Source: a virus. Taken from it: a DNA stretch of 45,744 nucleotides. The stretch spans positions 1-45,744 of IMG/VR virus record IMGVR_UViG_3300017716_002598, one strand, 5' to 3'. The notes under the pieces are model-generated. The model was not told the origin of the DNA. It searched no databases and saw only the letters and a list, made by a program, of their open reading frames with translations. The position numbers were made by a program, and so were the translations under genes. Below, piece by piece: positions 488 to 40,630 of this stretch (position 1 is the first letter of the stretch; each line of letters begins with the position of its first letter).

Positions 488-736
488 GTGGTGGCTTACG
501 TGAGTGCCGACGATATGGAGGCCCGCACCCCTGCACTAGAGGGGGAGGTGGGCGCGCTGATTGCCCGTCATGCGCTTCTCGACACCCTTGAACGCCAAGC
601 CGCTGAGATAGAGAGGCTGCGGGCCTTACTGATGCTCGCCCGCCCGTTCGTTGCTGATGACACGGAAGCAACGTGCGACCTTGCCGACCGCATCGACGCC
701 GCCCTTACAGGAGAAGACGCCGGGGGGAAGGGATGA
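488..736 (+). CDS. Hypothetical protein (82 aa, GTG start; ATG 515 is an alternative)
   Basis: Codon usage is rich in G+C at the third position. The stop overlaps the xis ATG (ATGA at 733-736). No similarity recognised. Confidence 0.5.
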   Translation: MVAYVSADDMEARTPALEGEVGALIARHALLDTLERQAAEIERLRALLMLARPFVADDTEATCDLADRIDAALTGEDAGGKG

Positions 737-927
737 CCGCCGCAAACGACAACCGGCTGTGCGATCTCCTGGCGTATGGCATACCCGAAGCCGCCGCGGC
801 CTTGAGCGTGGGGCAATCAACGATCTGGCGCTGGATCAAGGCCGGCCAGCTGCGGACGATCAAGCTGGGCGGCCGGACTGTGATCCGCCGGGAGGAGCTT
901 CTCCGGCTGCTTGACGAAGCGGCCTGA
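733..927 (+). CDS. xis: Excisionase / AlpA-MerR-type helix-turn-helix protein
   Basis: The sequence LSVGQSTIWRWIKAGQLRTIKLGGRTVIRREEL is a typical excisionase HTH. The protein is small (64 aa from ATG 733) and lies immediately upstream of attP and int. Confidence 0.8.
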   Translation: MTAANDNRLCDLLAYGIPEAAAALSVGQSTIWRWIKAGQLRTIKLGGRTVIRREELLRLLDEAA

Positions 928-936
928 AATGCAGCC

Positions 937-1181
937 TGTGGGGTAACTTGTGGGGCGAGGGGTCTGGGGCGGGTCCGGTTTCCTTTTGGAAACAACGCCC
1001 AAGCCCCCGAGATTTGGCTCCGCGGGTAGGGGCCGCATTGGTATCCCAGCCGGTCCCGTTTACCCCCGTTCAATCCCGCCCCGCGGGCTTTACAGGGGCC
1101 TCGGCCTCGGCTTAAGCCCCCATGTTACCCCACACGCTCCCGCTCAATACCGTGCGCGCCTGTGGGGTAGATTGTGGGGCG
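937..1181. other. attP region: arm-type repeats flanking a tRNA-3-prime-like core
   Basis: The tandem TGTGGGGTA-N3-TGTGGGGCG occurs at 937-957 and again at 1161-1181. An inverted copy, TACCCCACA, lies at 1126-1134. Between them, 1068-1088 (GTTCAATCCCGCCCCGCGGGC) looks like a T-loop, T-stem 3-prime half and acceptor 3-prime strand. Confidence 0.65.
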
Positions 1182-1184
1182 CCT

Positions 1185-2366
1185 ATGGCCCGAGCCATCA
1201 ATCGGCTGACCGCCAGGACGGTCGCGGCCATGACCCGGCCGGGCCGTCATGCGGACGGCGGCGGGCTCTATCTCATAGTCGACAAGGTGCCGGCCAACGC
1301 GGACGACAAGACCGCTCCGGCAAAGCGATGGGCGCTCCTCGTATCCGTCCGGGGAAAGCGGCGCGAGATCGGCCTGGGGGGCGTGACCTCGACCAACGGG
1401 CTGGCGGAGGCCCGAAAGAACGCCGCCGAGGCCGTCCGCGCGATTGAGCGGGGCGACGACCCGACCCGGCCCAAGGTGGCCGCCCCCGCCTTCCGTATTG
1501 CGGCCGAGCAGGTGATCAAGGACCTGGCCCCCGGCTGGCGCGGCGCGAAGACCGAGGACGGCTGGCGGCGGAACCTCCTAACCCATGCGGCGGATATCGG
1601 ATCCGTGCCGGTCGATCTGATCACGACCGACGACGTGCTTTCCGTTGTTCGCCCCCTTTGGACCGAGAAGCCGGAGAGCGGCGGGAAGCTGCGCGCCCGG
1701 ATCGAGGTTGTCCTCGACGCCGCCAAGGCGCGGGGCTGGCGGGAAGGGGAGAACCCGGCGCGGTGGCGGGGGCATCTCGACCGACTCCTCCCCAAGCCGA
1801 GGAAGCTGGTCCGGGGCCATCACAAGGCGCTGCCCTACGCCAAACTCCCCGCGTTCATGGCGGCCCTTGCCGAACAGACGGCCAGTTCCGCCCGGGCGCT
1901 CGAGTGGACGATCCTGACCGCCTCCCGAGAGGATATGACCCTCAACGCCCGCTGGGGGGAGGTCGAGGGCGATATCTGGACGATCCCCGGCTCTCGCATG
2001 AAGATGGCCCAAGACCTGCGCGTCCCCCTGCCGGCGGCGGCCCTGGCGGTGTTGGCCGCGGTCAAGATCGGCGAGCCCCGGCCGGAGGCGCTGATATTCC
2101 CCGGCAAGAAGAAGGACCGGCCAATGTCGAACGCGACGATGGACGCCCTTCTCGACCGCATGGGCGTCCCCGTCACGGTCCACGGCTTCCGCTCAACATT
2201 CCGCGACTGGGCCGGGGATATGACCGAACACCCGCGCGAGGTCGCCGAGGCGGCCCTGGCCCACGCCGTAGGGAACGCGGTCGAGCGATCCTATCGCCGG
2301 GGGGATGCGCTGGAGAAGCGCCGGGCGCTCATGGCGGACTGGGCCGCCTATTGCCGCCCCGCATAA
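1185..2366 (+). CDS. int: Tyrosine integrase (P4-like family)
   Basis: The C-terminal catalytic region HGFRSTFRDWAGD...LAHAVGNAVERSYRRGD carries the H-x-x-R and Y signatures. The N-terminus (GGGLYLIV) is typical of this family. ATG 1185 is preferred over the longer track ORF start at 1122. Confidence 0.9.
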   Translation: MARAINRLTARTVAAMTRPGRHADGGGLYLIVDKVPANADDKTAPAKRWALLVSVRGKRREIGLGGVTSTNGLAEARKNAAEAVRAIERGDDPTRPKVAAPAFRIAAEQVIKDLAPGWRGAKTEDGWRRNLLTHAADIGSVPVDLITTDDVLSVVRPLWTEKPESGGKLRARIEVVLDAAKARGWREGENPARWRGHLDRLLPKPRKLVRGHHKALPYAKLPAFMAALAEQTASSARALEWTILTASREDMTLNARWGEVEGDIWTIPGSRMKMAQDLRVPLPAAALAVLAAVKIGEPRPEALIFPGKKKDRPMSNATMDALLDRMGVPVTVHGFRSTFRDWAGDMTEHPREVAEAALAHAVGNAVERSYRRGDALEKRRALMADWAAYCRPA

Positions 2367-2392
2367 ATACGCGCCGAGTGCGTAAATAGGCG

Positions 2393-2420
2393 TTGACATT
2401 ACACTAGCGGAGCGTAATAT
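2393..2420 (+). promoter_or_regulatory. Near-consensus sigma70-type promoter of cassette A
   Basis: The promoter reads TTGACA (2393-2398), 16 nt, TAATAT (2415-2420), in an A+T-rich island. A TGCGTAAATA box (2379-2388) lies 4 nt upstream of the -35. The first ATG (2485) is 64 nt downstream of the -10. Confidence 0.7.
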
Positions 2421-2484
2421 CCCCTTATTGAAACGGGGCATCCGCCCCCACCCAGCCGGGGGGAACCGGCAAAGGGGGTCTCCC

Positions 2485-2670
2485 ATGACCTACTTCTCCG
2501 CCACCGACCACGCGATCCGCGCGGCCAGCGCGTCTCAGACCTTGCGTCTGGTCGAACGTCCCTCGCGGTTCGGCGGGGCGTTCGTCGCCATCGAAGACGG
2601 CTTCGGCCTAATCGAGGTGGCCGACGATATGCCGGCGGCCCAGGCTCGTGTCGCACAGTGTGCGGCATGA
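2485..2670 (+). CDS. Hypothetical small protein A1 (61 aa)
   Basis: ATG 2485 is preceded by the purine-rich AAAGGGGG. The stop overlaps the next ATG (ATGA). No similarity recognised. Confidence 0.6.
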   Translation: MTYFSATDHAIRAASASQTLRLVERPSRFGGAFVAIEDGFGLIEVADDMPAAQARVAQCAA

Positions 2671-2903
2671 GCGGGCTAGAGGAGCGAAACGGTCGGAAAT
2701 TCGCCTCTCCCAAACACCAGGCCCTTTACGACCTATTTCGCCGCGATCCGCCGACCGCCGGCTTCGGCGGGGGCAACGCCGCGGCCTATCGCTTCGGCTT
2801 CGCCAACCCCGAGAAGCCCGCGAAACACGTTCGCGGGTCGACCGCATACGCCGCCTGGGCCGCTGGCGTGGATACTGCCCGCGCCCTGGCCCCTAACCCT
2901 TAA
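2667..2903 (+). CDS. Hypothetical small protein A2 (78 aa)
   Basis: ATGA-coupled to A1. Codon bias is coding-like. No similarity recognised. Confidence 0.6.
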   Translation: MSGLEERNGRKFASPKHQALYDLFRRDPPTAGFGGGNAAAYRFGFANPEKPAKHVRGSTAYAAWAAGVDTARALAPNP

Positions 2904-2916
2904 GGAACCCGAGCCG

Positions 2917-3075
2917 ATGACCCGCCCTGACCTTGTTTGGCATCACCGCGCCCTTGTGGCGGAGGTCGCCGCCCATAACCTCGCCGTCATTGTCCGCCGC
3001 CGTCGCGGTGGAGATTGGAGCGCGCCGGAGAACCAGTATCGCAACGCCCTGGCCGAGATCGAGGCGCTGGCATGA
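2917..3075 (+). CDS. Hypothetical small protein A3 (52 aa; below the ORF-track cutoff)
   Basis: Translated by hand: MTRPDLVWHHRALVAEVAAHNLAVIVRRRRGGDWSAPENQYRNALAEIEALA. AAGGA lies about 10 nt upstream. The stop overlaps ATG 3072 (ATGA). Confidence 0.5.
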   Translation: MTRPDLVWHHRALVAEVAAHNLAVIVRRRRGGDWSAPENQYRNALAEIEALA

Positions 3076-3305
3076 TCCAGATGACCGAGACCAGCACCGG
3101 CCCGGCGTTCTCAACCGAGGCCCGCGGCGTGACCTATTATCTCCGCACCGACCGGCTGGGCCGTTACGAGTTGAGCAGCCAACGCATCTCCCTTCGCGCC
3201 TCGCGGACGGGCGGCACCGTTCGTCACTTCGCTTCGCTGGATCAGGTCGAGGCCGAGGTCAAAGCCTTTGCCGGCCTTAGCGCCCTGATTGGAAACCCCG
3301 CATGA
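3072..3305 (+). CDS. Hypothetical small protein A4 (77 aa)
   Basis: ATG 3072 is ATGA-coupled on both sides. No similarity recognised. Confidence 0.6.
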   Translation: MIQMTETSTGPAFSTEARGVTYYLRTDRLGRYELSSQRISLRASRTGGTVRHFASLDQVEAEVKAFAGLSALIGNPA

Positions 3306-3541
3306 CCCCCGCCGAGATCACCGCCGCCCGGGCCGCCCTTGGCGCGCAATGGGGCTTCCCCCGGCCGCTCCTCAAAAGCGAACTGGGCCGGGCCTTGGGC
3401 TTCGACGGGCGCGACCCTGGCCGGCAGATCGCCGAGCTCGAGGCGGGAACGTCGGCCTTGACCGGATCGACCGCCCAGCTTCTCCGGGTCTATCTCGCCG
3501 GGGCCCAGCCCCCGGGCGGGGTTGAGACGATCAAACGCTGA
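3302..3541 (+). CDS. XRE-type helix-turn-helix protein A5 (79 aa), last gene of cassette A
   Basis: MTPAEITAARAALG...SELGRALG...IAELEAGTSALTGSTAQLLRVYL matches the usual short phage XRE/antitoxin-like HTH pattern. It shares the MTPAE..AA..LG N-terminus with ORF 32652..32870. Confidence 0.6.
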   Translation: MTPAEITAARAALGAQWGFPRPLLKSELGRALGFDGRDPGRQIAELEAGTSALTGSTAQLLRVYLAGAQPPGGVETIKR

Positions 3542-3551
3542 GACGACAAAA

Positions 3552-3583
3552 GGCCCCGCCGCCCCCGAAGGAGCAGCGGGGCC
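3552..3583. terminator. Convergent-operon terminator hairpin
   Basis: GGCCCCGC (3552-3559) pairs with GCGGGGCC (3576-3583). On the minus strand the hairpin is followed by TTTTG, an intrinsic terminator for the late operon. It also lies 11 nt after the stop of cassette A. Confidence 0.7.
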
Positions 3584-3638
3584 ACAAGTCCCTTGCAGGG
3601 AACGGGGTTGCCTATCCCGGGACGCTGAACTCGGCGGG

Positions 3639-3806
3639 TTAGGAGGGGGAGGCGAGAAGCAGCCTCATGCTCTCCGCCACCGCTTCGGCCCGGTCGTGGC
3701 TCATCGGCACGAAGCCCTCAAGCTCGGGATCATGGCCTTGATATTGCCCCATCCCGGTCATGGCAAAGCTACCGGGTGCGATCTCGACAACCTCGATCTG
3801 ATGCAT
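3639..3806 (-). CDS. Hypothetical small protein (55 aa; below the ORF-track cutoff), last late gene
   Basis: Translated by hand: MHQIEVVEIAPGSFAMTGMGQYQGHDPELEGFVPMSHDRAEAVAESMRLLLASPS. GAGGGG lies 6 nt upstream of the ATG. The gene sits directly after the stop of the Kelch-like gene. Confidence 0.5.
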   Translation of the reverse strand: MHQIEVVEIAPGSFAMTGMGQYQGHDPELEGFVPMSHDRAEAVAESMRLLLASPS

Positions 3807-3815
3807 TGTGACCCC

Positions 3816-5243
3816 TCACACGACCATGCAGCGCATGACGATAGTCGACGTGTTCAGGATATACTGAATGAACCGGACCCCGGTTTCGGGCTCCACCACG
3901 TCAAAAGCTGTGTCGCCGAGGATTGCCGCACCGGACGGATAGACGTTGACAGACCAGCCCACCATCGACTGCTCTGCGAAGTCGTATCGGAACCAGCGGC
4001 CCGTCGCCTCCTTGGCGATGTAGAGATAGCCGTCCGCATAGACCCATTTCGTCCCGGTCGTGAAGGTCTCGGCCGCCGGAGCATAGGTGACGCCCGAGAC
4101 CCAAGTGTTTGCGGCGATGTCGTAATAGTCCAGCACCGCCCCAGCCCCACCCCGGAAGGAATAGATGCGGCGGCCGTTGATGATGCTGTTCTCATCGGAC
4201 CAGCGGGAATCCCGGGCCGAAGGGACGTTATAGACCCAGCTTCCACTGGCCCCGAGCCCAGGTGCAGCCGCGCGGGCCGCTGTAGGGGAGAGGGTCGTCC
4301 ATGTGTTTCCGCTAATCGAGTAGCGATACAGCGTGACCGCATTATTCCCCATCAGATATAGGAAGTCGTCGTTGCCCTCGATGTGATACTGGCTGGTCGC
4401 GTCGGGGGTCGTCGTCCATGCCGCCGAGACGGTCAGGGCCGTGCCGGTGTTGCTGGCAATGGTGCGGATTTGGCCCGCGCCGGTGCCGGCGACGATCTTG
4501 ACCTGAGAGTTGGCCCACTGGTTCGCGGCCCAGGCCTTCGCAGAGTTGCTGAGCGTGGTCGATGTTCCGCCGGTCGCCGTGCCAGTCGCGAAATTGATGT
4601 CAACGCCGTTGTCGGCGTAGCTCGGCGTGGCCACCATCCGGCCATCGGTGCCCCAAGAAGCGGGCAGGCCGGTGATGGTCAGCGTGGTCCAGGCGTTCGT
4701 GGCGAAGTCATAGACCCGGAAGGATCCGGCTGCGAGCGTGCCCGCCCCCAGCACATAGTAGCGCGGGGTGATCAGTCGATAGGTCGAGGAGGCCGTGATC
4801 GCCGCCGAGAACGGGACCGTGGGCGTCACGACGCCGTTCGCGCCGACCGTATTGAAGGCAATGGTCCGAACGTCGCCCGCGCCGGGTCCGCCCGTGATCT
4901 CGACCTGATACCCGGCCAGCGAACGCGCCAAGGTCAGGTTGGTGTTCAGCGCCGTCGTGCTGCCGCCGGTCGCCGTGCCGCTTGGCCCGATGGCAGCGCC
5001 GGTTCCGCAGGCCCCGGCCCCGAACGTGCCCGCCAGAGCCGCGGACGGGATCTGGATATAGCCGTCCTCAGCCGGATAGTAGAGATACTGCACCGTGTTG
5101 CTGACGACATACAGTTGCCGCTGCTGCGAAAGGCGCGAGGAGATCACAAACGTCCCCGCAGCCGTGGCGGCCGGCGCGGGCGAGGTCATCACCGTCCAGC
5201 GTTTTTGATCGAGGATTTTGCGGTTGAAATTGGCAACGGGCAT
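3816..5243 (-). CDS. Kelch-like beta-propeller fibre / receptor-binding candidate with a duplicated N-terminal module
   Basis: Kelch-type strands recur: FRVYDFATNAWTTL, LYRYSISGNTWTTL, VLDYYDIAANTWVSG, WFRYDFAEQS. Two roughly 70-aa repeats share GTATGG..T.L...V.I..G.GAG..RTIA.NT......(S/T).Y. Confidence 0.6.
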   Translation of the reverse strand: MPVANFNRKILDQKRWTVMTSPAPAATAAGTFVISSRLSQQRQLYVVSNTVQYLYYPAEDGYIQIPSAALAGTFGAGACGTGAAIGPSGTATGGSTTALNTNLTLARSLAGYQVEITGGPGAGDVRTIAFNTVGANGVVTPTVPFSAAITASSTYRLITPRYYVLGAGTLAAGSFRVYDFATNAWTTLTITGLPASWGTDGRMVATPSYADNGVDINFATGTATGGTSTTLSNSAKAWAANQWANSQVKIVAGTGAGQIRTIASNTGTALTVSAAWTTTPDATSQYHIEGNDDFLYLMGNNAVTLYRYSISGNTWTTLSPTAARAAAPGLGASGSWVYNVPSARDSRWSDENSIINGRRIYSFRGGAGAVLDYYDIAANTWVSGVTYAPAAETFTTGTKWVYADGYLYIAKEATGRWFRYDFAEQSMVGWSVNVYPSGAAILGDTAFDVVEPETGVRFIQYILNTSTIVMRCMVV

Positions 5244-33646: not shown

Positions 33647-33689
33647 ATTTTACGCAGGTCGCAATAGGCGGTTGCGTATTATTTACGCA
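33647..33689 (-). promoter_or_regulatory. Candidate promoter of cassette B, with the same box geometry as cassette A
   Basis: Minus strand: TGCGTAAATA (33689..33680), 4 nt, GCAACC, 17 nt, TAAAAT (33652..33647). The inverted repeat TACGCA-N16-TGCGTA lies at 33651-33678. The ATG is 61 nt downstream. Confidence 0.5.
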
Positions 33690-40192: not shown

Positions 40193-40630
40193 TCAGGTCG
40201 CCTTGTCGGCGGCGGTTAGGGCGGCCTCTGTGCGGTCCAGCGCGTCGCGGGCTTCGCGGAGTTCCTCAAAGCCGCGCTTGATCTCGCGGGGGGTCAGGAC
40301 GCGATCCGCGAGGGCAGTGCGGAGGTGCCGCTGGACGTCGCTCGCCTGTTCGGTGAAGGCGCAGGCCAGATCGGCCAGCCGCTCGGCCCCGACCTCGACC
40401 CGGGACCGCTTGGCCAAGGCGTCGCTGATCACTGGGTGACCGCAGTAGCGTTCAAGGGCGGCGAGGATGTCGAGGGGGAGGTAGCAGCCCGTGCCGACCG
40501 TCTGGCACCGGGAAAGCTGGGGCACCGAATAGTGCCGGGCGAGCGCCTCGCATGCCGCCGAAGCCTCCGCGAGCCCTCCGCAACGCGCGATCAGTTTCTC
40601 GGTCAGGAGGGCAAGAAGGCGGTCGCTCAT
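40193..40630 (-). CDS. Hypothetical protein (145 aa), possible CII/CP76-like regulator
   Basis: It is the third gene after cro. The C-terminus is helical, with LTPREIKRGFEEL. The family assignment is uncertain. Confidence 0.55.
   Translation of the reverse strand: MSDRLLALLTEKLIARCGGLAEASAACEALARHYSVPQLSRCQTVGTGCYLPLDILAALERYCGHPVISDALAKRSRVEVGAERLADLACAFTEQASDVQRHLRTALADRVLTPREIKRGFEELREARDALDRTEAALTAADKAT

What the first reader, a model, noticed from the sequence alone, without database searches (positions are those of the whole stretch)
2368..3590. Cassette A: an int-proximal moron with a near-consensus sigma70 promoter, five coupled mini-ORFs ending in a paralogous HTH, and a terminator
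A second unit with the same architecture lies directly after int, at what would be the prophage end once integrated at attP.
- The promoter reads TTGACA-16-TAATAT (2393-2420). That is strikingly close to consensus for this GC-rich genome.
- It is preceded by the inverted repeat TACGC-N7-GCGTA (2368-2384).
- ORFs of 61, 78, 52, 77 and 79 aa follow, chained by ATGA overlaps. The 52-aa ORF at 2917..3075 is not in the supplied track.
- The last ORF is an XRE-type HTH whose N-terminus (MTPAEITAARAALG) parallels the HTH of cassette B (MTPAEYRAALAPLG).
- The unit ends at the hairpin 3552-3583.

A strong host-type promoter next to int suggests expression from the prophage. The cargo could be lysogenic conversion, exclusion or anti-defence genes, with the HTH as autoregulator.
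Basis: partly seen in the sequence, partly recalled or inferred. Interest (0 to 1): 0.7.

Follow-up and report, generated by a model that had tools for sequence, protein, structure and literature searches.

The report
Self-regulated accessory gene cassette in phage
Next to the integrase of an uncultured alphaproteobacterial temperate phage lies a short operon with the genome's only strong host-type promoter, four swappable tiny genes of unknown function and a conserved DNA-binding protein that probably shuts off its own promoter. This layout resembles known anti-CRISPR/anti-defence operons and could help find new phage counter-defence genes.

Summary
The sequence features are real. TTGACA-16-TAATAT (2393-2420) is the only sigma70-like promoter in the 45.7 kb window. 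Five ORFs follow, and the unannotated 52-aa A3 is under purifying selection. A GC hairpin closes the unit.

Corrections:
- A2/A3 are separated by 13 nt, not joined by an ATGA overlap.
- The hairpin carries its U-tract on the minus strand, so it is mainly the late-operon terminator.
- Paralogy of A5 with the cassette-B HTH is weak (hhalign probability 43%).

New findings:
- A second palindrome, TACAC-N7-GCGTA (2400-2416), lies between -35 and -10.
- A5 models confidently as an XRE-fold HTH. The nearest structures are R-M controller proteins, HigA2, Aca2 and Aca10. No sequence family matches.
- About 72 related loci carry an A5 homologue as the distal gene. At least 45 have a promoter-embedded TAC-N11-GTA palindrome, and most share a GGGGC-NNC-GCCCC leader hairpin.
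- The cargo between promoter and A5 falls into about 60 unrelated families of small ORFans. One is a DNA methyltransferase.

Best reading: an Aca-like autorepressed accessory operon, probably counter-defence. This is a new member of a known kind. Binding by A5 and cargo function are inferred, not shown.

The parts
2368..2384 (.). O1: perfect palindrome TACGC-N7-GCGTA, ending 8 nt upstream of the -35 hexamer. Proposed auxiliary operator.
   Evidence: TACRC-N7-SCGTA is expected 0.10 times per window and is found only here and at 2400. O1 is kept in L001, in L011 (where int is inverted and only 55% identical) and in L009 (where int is reduced to a remnant), with different spacer bases. A matching upstream site at -32 or -44/-45 from O2 occurs in about 12 of 33 unique loci, against 1.7% of control windows.
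2393..2420 (+). Promoter P_A: TTGACA, 16-nt spacer, TAATAT.
   Evidence: the only sigma70-like site in the window on either strand. The same -35 and spacing occur in L001 (TATTGT), L011 (TATTCT) and L009 (18 nt, TAAGGT).
2400..2416 (.). O2: TACAC-N7-GCGTA palindrome (TAC-N11-GTA geometry) in the promoter spacer. Its right arm overlaps the -10 hexamer. Proposed main operator.
   Evidence: TAC and GTA are invariant in the 9-sequence promoter alignment. Under strict criteria the site is present in 33 of 72 loci, plus about 12 under relaxed criteria, against 7 sites in 809 kb of background.
2435..2448 (+). Leader stem-loop GGGGC-atcc-GCCCC within the conserved block gaaAC...CAC, at about +8 to +22 of the predicted transcript.
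   Evidence: It appears in the fold of the window leader. The same element, AAC-GGGGC-NNC-GCCCC-AC, lies about 20-25 nt before the first ATG in about 55 of 72 cassettes. There is no Rfam match. Its function is unknown.
2485..2670 (+). A1, 61 aa, acidic (pI 5.0), no transmembrane segment. Cargo of unknown function.
   Evidence: It has no hit in Pfam, PHROGs, NCBIfam or PADLOC. Homologues at 58-94% identity sit in other phages at other positions, among small ORFs near terminase or head genes.
2667..2903 (+). A2, 78 aa, basic. Member of a small-protein family with the motif RGSxAYAAWAAGVD. Cargo of unknown function.
   Evidence: 45 cluster representatives have E<=1e-3. The alignment is A2. The model is three helices with pLDDT 87. 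It has no fold match in PDB or BFVD, no Pfam hit and no match in cultured phages.
2917..3075 (+). A3, 52 aa. It is conserved next to A5 in L001.
   Evidence: Against L001 it shows 5 synonymous and 1 non-synonymous differences.
3072..3305 (+). A4, 77 aa. It is an insertion/deletion relative to L001. Cargo of unknown function.
   Evidence: It is absent from L001, where A3 is ATGA-coupled directly to A5. Homologues occur between the small and large terminase genes in L015/L016, with their own promoter in L018, and as the first gene of another A5-type cassette in L041.
3302..3541 (+). A5, 79 aa. XRE-fold helix-turn-helix protein and proposed autorepressor (Aca-like). It is the conserved distal gene of the cassette.
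   Evidence: The AF2 model has pLDDT 94.6 and five helices. Top Foldseek hits are C.Kpn2I, HigA2, C.Csp231I, Aca2, Aca10 and P22 c2, with probability 0.93-0.99 and TM about 0.6. PHROG 14076 matches at E 9.5e-5. The family has the invariant motif RPL..SE.GR.L..GRDPG and was found in 17 proteins plus 65 IMG/VR loci.
3552..3583 (.). GC-rich hairpin between the convergent cassette and the late operon. It is a canonical terminator for the minus strand and a hairpin without a U-tract for the plus strand.
   Evidence: It is kept in L001. In L011 and L009 the stem sequence is changed but still pairs.

Best explanation
Cassette A is an autoregulated accessory operon of the acr-aca type.

Proposed mechanism:
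- A strong host-sigma70 promoter (2393-2420) drives four small cytoplasmic cargo proteins (A1-A4) and, last, the XRE-fold protein A5.
- As A5 accumulates, an A5 dimer binds the TAC-N11-GTA palindrome O2 (2400-2416), which overlaps the -10. It probably also binds O1 (2368-2384) cooperatively.
- This throttles the promoter. The result would be an early burst after infection and a low basal level in the lysogen.
- The cargo is a recombining pool of small accessory genes. These are most likely counter-defence or host-takeover factors, and relatives carry an orphan DNA methyltransferase in the same slot.

Shown here:
- The anatomy of the unit.
- The uniqueness of the promoter within the genome.
- The predicted fold of A5.
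- Family-wide linkage of A5 homologues to a promoter-embedded palindrome and a leader hairpin.
- Extreme cargo turnover.

Inferred:
- That A5 is the protein bound at O1/O2, and that binding represses.
- The timing of expression.
- Any anti-defence activity of A1-A4.
For: Promoter:
- It is unique in 45.7 kb.
- O1 and O2 are the only TACRC-N7-SCGTA sites in the window, with 0.10 expected.

Palindrome across relatives:
- O2 sits between -35 and -10 in every close relative, and TAC...GTA is invariant in the 9-locus alignment.
- Across 72 loci with A5 homologues, 33 (strict) plus about 12 (relaxed) have a TTGnnn hexamer followed by a TAC-N11-GTA palindrome whose last TA starts the -10. It lies 246-1850 nt upstream on the same strand. 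Background is 7 sites in 809 kb.
- Both arms change together between clades: TACAGG/CCTGTA, TACGGG/CCCGTA, TACGAC/GTCGTA, TACGTC/GACGTA. This tracks the first recognition-helix residue after GRDPG. The Mantel test of operator against helix gives r=0.43, with 0 of 2000 permutations reaching it.

A5 and operon structure:
- The A5 model has pLDDT 94.6, and its best structural matches are autoregulators: C-proteins, HigA2, Aca2 and Aca10.
- The A5 homologue is the last or next-to-last gene and is often ATGA-coupled.

Cargo:
- 87 proteins fall into 60 families. Of 47 further representatives scanned, none hits Pfam and the 8 PHROG hits are all of unknown function.
- The one annotated cargo is phrog_757 DNA methyltransferase (E 1e-32 and 6e-63).
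- The mosaic junction between the window and L001 falls inside the promoter spacer at 2404/2405 and at the A3 ATG.
- A1 and A4 homologues move independently among phages.

Literature parallel:
- In the Aca2 system a strong promoter carries one inverted repeat across -35/-10 and a second in the 5' UTR, and the prophage makes basal Aca2 (PMC6765145).
- Aca-regulated operons carry DNA-modification genes and 5' UTR RNA motifs (PMC13551039).
Against: - No binding or expression data exist.
- The operator co-diverges with the rest of A5 as strongly as with the recognition helix (r=0.45 vs 0.43). The helix-specific partial correlation is only 0.17 (29 of 2000 permutations). Linkage and shared ancestry therefore explain much of the covariation.
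- No cargo protein matches any known anti-defence, defence or other family, and no Acr database was available.
- The host and its defence systems are unknown.
- O1 is centred near -51, a position also used by activators.
- About a third of the loci lack a clean palindrome.
- A5 has no sequence similarity to any Aca with a Pfam model or a solved structure.
- The same operator design occurs in L024/L025 and L033 without a detectable A5 homologue.
Confidence: 0.55

Rival explanations
1. Prophage-expressed moron or lysogenic-conversion cassette. The unit is switched on in the lysogen from a host-type promoter at the prophage end. Its products benefit the host or exclude other phages, and A5 only tunes the level.
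For: It has its own strong promoter. It lies directly after int and the attP-like region 928-1184, so it would sit near attL in the prophage. It is convergent with the late operon and closed by a hairpin. Cargo varies between relatives.
Against: No relative lacks the unit, so the insertion criterion for a moron is not met. Homologous cassettes sit beside terminase genes far from int. A1-A4 are soluble with no membrane segment, unlike many exclusion or conversion proteins. Nothing matches PADLOC defence models. The palindrome over the -10 argues for repression rather than constitutive expression.
Confidence: 0.2
2. A phage regulatory module. A5 is a Cro/C-type switch or timing regulator for the phage itself, possibly also acting on cassette B. 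The small ORFs are modulators of lysis-lysogeny or late expression.
For: The cassette-A and cassette-B promoters are the only two places in the window with three or more GCGTA/TACGC half-sites within 56 bp. This is 2 clusters against 0.15 expected, and 2 or more occurred in 3 of 300 simulations. Cassette B shares the ACAGACAGATG leader and the GGGGC...GCCCC hairpin and lies just upstream of the late operon. Several homologous cassettes abut the terminase genes.
Against: Cargo is not conserved (60 families), the genomic position varies, and A5 sits at the far end of an accessory-looking operon. A CII-like activator and the divergent early region lie elsewhere, at about 40.2-41.7 kb. The half-sites in cassette B are not in the TAC-N11-GTA arrangement.
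Confidence: 0.1
3. A toxin-antitoxin or abortive-infection pair, with A5 as a HigA-like antitoxin and autorepressor and the gene in front of it (A4) as the toxin.
For: Foldseek hits to HigA2 have probability 0.93-0.98. A4 and A5 are ATGA-coupled in toxin-first order. Palindromic autoregulation is typical of type II TA systems. An unrelated hicA-like operon with a TACGCA-N5-TGCGTA operator turned up in the pattern scan.
Against: The gene upstream of A5 differs in almost every clade: A4, A3, a methyltransferase, or 44-110 aa ORFans. No toxin family is hit. L001 lacks A4 altogether yet has an identical A5.
Confidence: 0.07
4. A remnant of a restriction-modification control unit. A5 is a C (controller) protein that once timed a methyltransferase/endonuclease pair.
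For: The best structural matches are C.Kpn2I and C.Csp231I. L001 and L011 carry a phrog_757 methyltransferase directly upstream of A3/A5. The two tandem palindromes recall the C-box OL/OR pair.
Against: The window has no methyltransferase or endonuclease. A methyltransferase is present in 2 of about 45 analysed cassettes, and no endonuclease was seen. C genes normally precede the endonuclease gene rather than ending an operon of ORFans.
Confidence: 0.05

Closest known systems
acrIF8-aca2 operon of Pectobacterium phage ZF40 (Aca2), and Aca-regulated anti-defence operons in general (PMC6765145, PMC9410906, PMC13551039)
   Same: Both have a strong near-consensus promoter, small variable genes first and a roughly 80-120 aa HTH regulator last. 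Both have a palindrome across the -35/-10 region, a second palindrome or hairpin nearby or in the 5' UTR, and DNA-modification genes among the cargo of some members. The regulator can be used as a guilt-by-association anchor. Foldseek aligns A5 to Aca2 (27-28% identity over 63 columns) and to Aca10.
   Different: A5 has no detectable sequence relationship to any Aca with a Pfam model or a solved structure. It has an unusually long invariant GxxGRDPG turn. The operator is TAC-N11-GTA. The leader hairpin does not resemble the DNA operator, unlike Aca2's IR2. No cargo gene is a known Acr. The host clade (Alphaproteobacteria) and its defences are unknown. Nothing has been tested experimentally.
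Restriction-modification controller proteins (C.Kpn2I, C.Csp231I, C.Esp1396I)
   Same: They are the best structural matches (rmsd 1.6 A over 65-66 columns). They are small dimeric XRE-fold autoregulators acting on paired palindromic operators next to their own promoter.
   Different: There is no R-M genes in the window. A5 is promoter-distal. The operator sequence and spacing differ: 32 bp centre to centre, with the -35 hexamer lying between the sites.
Phage morons (for example lambda bor and lom, HK97-type morons)
   Same: It is a compact unit with its own promoter, bounded by a hairpin, at a module boundary. Its contents are non-core and differ between related phages.
   Different: It is multi-gene with an in-built regulator. 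It is present as a conserved slot in all relatives examined rather than as an extra insertion. The hairpin's U-tract serves the opposite strand.
HigA2-type antitoxins
   Same: The fold matches, the protein is small, and it is translationally coupled to an upstream small gene.
   Different: There is no conserved toxin partner. The upstream neighbour changes between clades.

Membership tests
acr-aca type (Aca-regulated anti-defence) operon | A small HTH (or RHH) regulator gene is co-transcribed as the distal gene with small upstream genes. | tested here: met
   A5 has an XRE fold. It is the last gene in the window and last or next-to-last in relatives.
acr-aca type (Aca-regulated anti-defence) operon | Palindromic operator(s) lie within the operon's own promoter or 5' UTR and are conserved with the regulator family. 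| tested here: met
   O1 and O2 are present in the window. A promoter-embedded TAC-N11-GTA palindrome occurs in at least 45 of 72 loci, against 7 sites in 809 kb of background. A leader hairpin occurs in about 55 of 72 loci.
acr-aca type (Aca-regulated anti-defence) operon | The regulator binds those sites and represses the operon. | not testable with these tools
   Only indirect support is available: concerted arm changes and co-divergence with A5.
acr-aca type (Aca-regulated anti-defence) operon | At least one upstream gene is a known or demonstrated anti-CRISPR or anti-defence gene. | tested here: inconclusive
   A1-A4 and 47 other cargo representatives have no informative hit in Pfam, PHROGs, NCBIfam or PADLOC. 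No Acr or dbAPIS library was on hand. The only suggestive cargo is a phrog_757 DNA methyltransferase in L001 and L011.
Known Aca families (Aca1-Aca14) | Sequence homology to a described Aca family. | tested here: not met
   None of the 17 family members has a Pfam hit, including DUF1870/Aca2. A profile search of all PDB sequences, which include Aca1, Aca2 and Aca10, finds nothing. Families without a Pfam model or a structure could not be checked.
XRE / Cro-C1 helix-turn-helix superfamily | Five-helix bundle with an HTH formed by helices 2 and 3. | tested here: met
   The model has pLDDT 94.6 with helices at 3-16, 25-31, 39-48, 55-65 and 74-77. All top PDB matches have the XRE fold, with probability up to 0.99 and TM about 0.6.
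XRE / Cro-C1 helix-turn-helix superfamily | A match to the sequence profiles HTH_3, HTH_31 or similar. | tested here: not met
   Only PHROG 14076 'transcriptional regulator' matches, at E 9.5e-5.
Moron (independent extra transcription unit) | Own promoter and own terminator. | tested here: inconclusive
   The promoter criterion is met. The hairpin has a U-tract only on the opposite strand.
Moron (independent extra transcription unit) | Present in one phage between genes that are adjacent in a close relative. | tested here: not met
   Every relative recovered has the unit. Only its contents differ.
Moron (independent extra transcription unit) | Expressed from the repressed prophage. | not testable with these tools
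   No transcript data are available.
Type II toxin-antitoxin (HigBA-like) | A conserved toxin gene is adjacent to the antitoxin. | tested here: not met
   The upstream neighbour differs between clades. L001 lacks A4.
R-M controller (C) protein unit | Linked endonuclease and methyltransferase genes. | tested here: not met
   Neither is present in the window. A methyltransferase is present in only 2 relatives, and no endonuclease was seen.

The most novel reading that the evidence does not exclude
The A5 family (motif RPL..SE.GR.L..GRDPG), its TAC-N11-GTA operator and the invariant GGGGC-NNC-GCCCC leader hairpin together define a previously undescribed Aca-like control system in alphaproteobacterial phages. 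It would combine DNA-level and RNA-level control. It would mark about 60 or more families of small ORFan proteins, including A1-A4, as new counter-defence factors. It might also co-regulate a second cassette (B) in the same genome.
Probability: 0.3. Interest if true: 0.7.

Novelty: new member of a known kind. Interest (0 to 1): 0.5.

Why it matters
If A5 is an Aca-like autorepressor, it provides a guilt-by-association handle for phages of Caulobacter-like and other freshwater and soil Alphaproteobacteria. Almost no anti-defence genes are known in that group.

The handle has three parts: the protein family, a 17-bp operator and a leader hairpin. More than 70 cassettes recovered here already list about 60 unrelated small-protein families to test. 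All three elements are short and easy to assay.

The finding also shows that the mosaic exchange point lies inside the promoter spacer. This is a concrete example of how phages swap cargo while keeping the control elements.

It does not reveal a new principle. The logic is that of the known acr-aca operons.

Tried and rejected
Searches that found nothing:
- DNA similarity of 700-3700 to cultured phages found only distant integrase matches.
- tblastn of A2 and A5 against 50,697 phage records found no match.
- The A5 single-sequence scan of IMG/VR found nothing. The alignment-based scan later found 65 loci.
- The 19-mer promoter scan gave 0 hits in IMG/VR and 2 chance hits in GTDB genomes, in unrelated low-GC or Phycisphaerae contexts.
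- A2 had no usable Foldseek match.
- A profile of the A5 family against PDB sequences found nothing.
- PADLOC and NCBIfam found nothing for A1-A5 or the cassette-B proteins.
- Rfam found no family in the window, L012, L020 or L024.

My error:
- The single metagenome pattern scan used NN between TTGACA and TACRC, whereas the window has one base there. It therefore could not recover window-type loci. It returned only L024/L025, a soil element with the same two-operator design but no visible A5.

Ideas rejected or left open:
- I read the first 60 nt of L009 as a tRNA-Leu fragment, but ARAGORN and Rfam do not support this, so it is dropped.
- The L033 HTH-like protein, which sits behind an identical operator design, is not detectably related to A5 (hhalign probability 0.4). 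I do not count it as a member.
- Helical-phase arguments for O1-O2 spacing (32, 33, 44 and 45 bp) are suggestive only.
- Downstream hairpins after A5 homologues are only mildly enriched (31 of 54 vs 27 of 72).
- The TA, C-protein and strict-moron readings were each rejected on a defining feature (see the membership tests).
Full report
**Context.** The window looks like a complete temperate phage genome of about 45.7 kb with 67% G+C.
- Late genes run on the minus strand from about 32.2 kb down to 3.6 kb.
- Replication genes, including a DnaB-like helicase and a primosomal protein, and a CII-like activator lie on the minus strand at 33.7-40.6 kb.
- A plus-strand early arm runs from about 41.7 kb through the window end into 1-927. 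It includes a DUF968 protein and an HTH_17 excisionase-like gene at 733-927.
- An attP-like non-coding region follows at 928-1184. It has 24-nt arm-type repeats at 934-957 and 1158-1181 and an inverted copy at 1117-1138.
- Next comes a tyrosine integrase at 1185-2366, and then the cassette under study.
- The closest cultured terminase relatives are Rhizobium and Paracoccus phages at no more than 47% amino-acid identity. One A5 homologue sits in a Caulobacter sp. MAG. The host is therefore probably an alphaproteobacterium. The same phage appears in several freshwater metagenomes.

**Checking the observation: what holds.**
- TTGACA-16-TAATAT is at 2393-2420. It is the only promoter-like site in 900-4200 (0.3 expected) and the only one at 9/12 or better on either strand of the whole window.
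- TACGC-N7-GCGTA is at 2368-2384.
All show the G+C-by-codon-position pattern of coding sequence.
Against L001 it differs by five synonymous codons and one non-synonymous codon, so it is a real gene.

**Checking the observation: corrections.**
- A2 and A3 are separated by 13 nt. They are not ATGA-coupled.
- The hairpin at 3552-3583 is called as a terminator only on the minus strand (U-tract TTTTGTCGTC). It is more stable there, at -38.6 against -28.1 kcal/mol. It is therefore first of all the end of the convergent late operon. On the plus strand it is a hairpin without a U-tract.
- The claimed paralogy of A5 with the cassette-B HTH (32870-32652, minus strand) is weak. BLASTP finds no alignment, and hhalign gives probability 43%.

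- A second palindrome, TACAC-N7-GCGTA, lies at 2400-2416. It sits between -35 and -10, and its last TA forms the first two bases of the -10.
- The degenerate pattern TACRC-N7-SCGTA is expected 0.10 times in the window. It occurs only at these two sites, 32 bp apart, on either side of the -35 hexamer.

**A5.**
- No Pfam model hits A5 or any of 16 homologues. A family profile finds nothing among all PDB sequences. PHROG 14076 ('transcriptional regulator') matches at E 9.5e-5.
- An AlphaFold2 model built on the 17-sequence alignment is confident (pLDDT 94.6) and has five helices.
- All top Foldseek matches have the XRE fold: C.Kpn2I, HigA2, C.Csp231I, Aca2, Aca10 and P22 c2. Probabilities are 0.93-0.99, TM is about 0.6, and rmsd is 1.6 A for the C-proteins and Aca proteins.
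- The family has the invariant motif RPL..SE.GR.L..GRDPG, with an unusually long turn between helices 2 and 3.
- The 'XRE-type HTH' assignment is therefore right at the level of fold, but A5 belongs to no described sequence family.

**Close relatives: cargo varies while the ends stay fixed.**
- *L001.* Its integrase differs from the window's by one non-synonymous codon in 392. It has the same O1 and -35. From position 2405 onward, inside the promoter spacer, the sequence differs: a different -10 (TATTGT), a different leader, and genes of 89, 112, 98 and 239 aa. Homology resumes exactly at the A3 start codon. A4 is absent, A3 is ATGA-coupled to an identical A5, and the hairpin is the same.
- *L011.* Its integrase is inverted and only 55% identical, yet it keeps O1, the -35 and O2. 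It carries genes of 74, 89, 98, 114 and 210 aa before an 86%-identical A5, followed by one extra gene.
- *L009.* Only the last codons of int remain, but the promoter module is kept with four different small genes.
- The 239-aa and 210-aa proteins match phrog_757 'DNA methyltransferase' (E 1.6e-32 and 6.4e-63).
- O1 therefore belongs to the cassette rather than to int. The cargo is exchanged by recombination within the promoter spacer and at gene boundaries.

**The wider family.**
- More distant A5 homologues (about 50% identity) in L012, L019 and L020-L023 again close short runs of small genes. There the cassettes sit next to, and divergent from, the terminase genes.
- An alignment-based scan of IMG/VR added 65 loci.
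- In 33 of 72 loci under strict criteria, and about 12 more under relaxed criteria, the same arrangement appears. A TTGnnn hexamer is followed 1-3 nt later by a palindrome of TAC-N11-GTA geometry whose terminal TA starts the -10. The site lies 246-1850 nt upstream of the A5 homologue on the same strand. Elsewhere in these loci, on both strands, such sites occur 7 times in 809 kb. Most of the remaining loci show a degraded left arm at the same place.
- The inner bases of both arms change in concert between clades: TACAGG/CCTGTA, TACGGG/CCCGTA, TACGAC/GTCGTA, TACGTC/GACGTA and TACGTA/TACGTA. They loosely track the first recognition-helix residue: R with TAC(G/A)C, E with TACGG, A/T with TACAG, and Q/K/L with TACG(T/A).
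- A Mantel test shows that operator and helix co-diverge (r=0.43, 0 of 2000 permutations). The operator co-diverges equally with the rest of the protein (r=0.45). The helix-specific partial correlation is small (0.17, 29 of 2000 permutations). The covariation is therefore compatible with A5 binding but does not prove it.
- An upstream O1-like copy at -32 or -44/-45 is present in about 12 of 33 unique loci, against 1.7% of control windows.

**Conserved leader element.**
- The sequence AAC-GGGGC-NNC-GCCCC-AC lies about 20-25 nt before the first start codon in about 55 of 72 cassettes.
- In the window it is at 2435-2448 and forms the first stem-loop of the predicted leader.
- The stem hardly varies. 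L021 has a G.U pair and L068 has an A-U outer pair. Structure cannot therefore be separated from sequence conservation.
- No Rfam family matches. L001, L009 and L011 lack the element.
- Its role is open: an RNA site for A5 or another factor, an mRNA stabiliser, or a DNA site.

**Cargo.**
- Between promoter and A5 homologue there are one to five genes, mostly 44-110 aa. They are often translationally coupled.
- 87 cargo proteins fall into 60 BLASTP families.
- Of 47 further representatives, none hits Pfam, and the eight PHROG hits are all 'unknown function'.
- In the window, A1-A4 have no hit in Pfam, PHROGs, NCBIfam or PADLOC and no membrane segment.
- A2 belongs to a family with 45 cluster representatives. 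It has a confident three-helix model and no fold match.
- A1 and A4 homologues occur in other phages at other positions. They sit among small ORFs next to terminase or head genes, once with a private promoter, and once (A4) as the first gene of another A5-type cassette.

**Interpretation.**
- The features match the acr-aca and Aca-regulated anti-defence operons. These features are a uniquely strong promoter, a palindrome over the -10 plus an auxiliary one, a leader hairpin, rapidly exchanging tiny ORFan genes, and a conserved small HTH at the end.
- In ZF40 a strong promoter carries IR1 across -35/-10 and IR2 in the 5' UTR. Aca2 represses the operon, and the prophage makes basal Aca2 (PMC6765145).
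- Later work shows that Aca proteins often control several operons, are associated with 5' UTR RNA motifs, and have DNA-modification genes among their cargo (PMC13551039; see also PMC9410906).
- I therefore favour an autorepressed accessory operon whose cargo is probably counter-defence or host takeover. Confidence is about 0.55 for the regulatory logic plus accessory nature, and lower for anti-defence specifically.
- Rival readings are scored in their own sections. They are the prophage-expressed conversion moron, a phage timing regulator, a HigBA-like TA pair and a C-protein R-M remnant. The last three each fail a defining feature that was tested here.

**Possible link to cassette B.**
- The cassette-A and cassette-B promoter regions are the only two places in the window with three GCGTA/TACGC half-sites within 56 bp. 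That is 2 clusters against 0.15 expected, and 2 or more occurred in 3 of 300 simulations.
- Cassette B shares the ACAGACAGATG leader found in the A-type cassettes of relatives, and it has a GGGGC...GCCCC hairpin.
- The half-sites in cassette B are arranged differently, however, so co-regulation is only a lead.

**Novelty and limits.**
- The kind of system is known. The regulator family, its operator and the leader element appear undescribed in the libraries and papers searched, and the host clade is new for this architecture. I file it as a new member of a known kind.
- There is no experimental evidence, no Acr-specific database was available, and the host is unknown.
- One of my collection scans was mis-specified.
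- The structure-search E-values for A5 are individually weak (0.35-1) despite high Foldseek probabilities.

Noticed in passing
window 33700-32560 (minus strand): B1 33585-33325, B2 33275-33039, B3 33097-32867, B4/HTH 32870-32652: Cassette B is a second small-gene operon ending in an HTH-like protein and a T-run terminator at about 32606-32566. Its promoter region (33651-33688) holds three GCGTA/TACGC half-sites, the only such cluster in the window besides cassette A. It uses the leader ACAGACAGATG twice; A-type cassettes of L001 and L009 have the identical 11-mer and L011 and L012 close variants. It has a GGGGCttcgGCCCC hairpin at 33317-33304. Cross-regulation with A5 is possible.
   Followed up: partly
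window 2429-2451; L012, L019-L021 and about 50 IMG/VR loci (for example L034:3270-3324): A near-invariant leader element, AAC-GGGGC-NNC-GCCCC-AC, lies about 20-25 nt upstream of the first ATG of A5-type cassettes. L074 has a copy before each of its two genes. There is no Rfam family. It cannot be decided whether it acts as RNA or as DNA.
   Followed up: partly
window 928-1184: An attP-like non-coding region lies between the excisionase-like gene and int. It has 24-nt direct repeats (934-957 and 1158-1181, 92% identical) and an inverted copy (1117-1138), which are probably integrase arm-type sites. After integration, xis and int would end up at opposite prophage ends.
   Followed up: partly
L024:537-586 and L025:1910-1959 (soil metagenome contigs): These contigs have the same design: TACGC-N7-GCGTA, 8 nt, TTGACA, 2 nt, TACGC-N7-GCGTA/TATTAT. 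The flanks are otherwise unrelated and AT-richer. A leader of about 150 nt follows, whose end resembles a tRNA 3' half (ggttcgagtccctctacctccaccca, by eye; not called by ARAGORN or Rfam). Next comes a 213-aa protein with an HELGH motif. No A5 homologue is visible in the 2.3 kb available.
   Followed up: partly
L033:6470-5941 (minus strand; IMG/VR UViG_2889415604_000003): A GC-rich element next to a 911-aa gene I read by eye as relaxase/helicase-like (not scanned against any library) carries TATGC-N7-GCGTA, 8 nt, TTGACA and TACGC-N7-GCGTA. It also has a GGGGC...GCCCC leader hairpin, a 72-aa gene and an ATGA-coupled 76-aa HTH-like protein. That protein is not detectably homologous to A5 (hhalign probability 0.4).
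   Followed up: partly
L030:11101-11149 and L032:727-775: Low-GC viral contigs carry a consensus promoter whose spacer holds TACGCA-N5-TGCGTA, upstream of a gene whose N-terminus I read by eye as HicA-like (LKRADLIGRLEKNGWYL; not scanned against any library). This is an unrelated operon that matched the search pattern.
   Followed up: no
L009:214-567 and 575-610: In this TARA prophage-like contig the integrase is reduced to its last ~12 codons. A MUG113/T5orf172 (GIY-YIG-like) gene sits in its place, and the cassette promoter module is retained.
   Followed up: partly
window 40193-40630 (minus strand) and the divergent region 40.6-41.7 kb: A CII-like transcriptional activator (phrog_101, E 1.7e-8) lies at the head of the minus-strand replication arm. 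The phage's lysis-lysogeny switch is probably here, far from cassette A. No CI-like repressor was identified among the ORFs scanned.
   Followed up: no
L022 vs L023: These two near-identical contigs differ by the presence or absence of one 72-aa cargo gene directly upstream of the A5 homologue. This is a single-gene indel like A4 in the window compared with L001.
   Followed up: no
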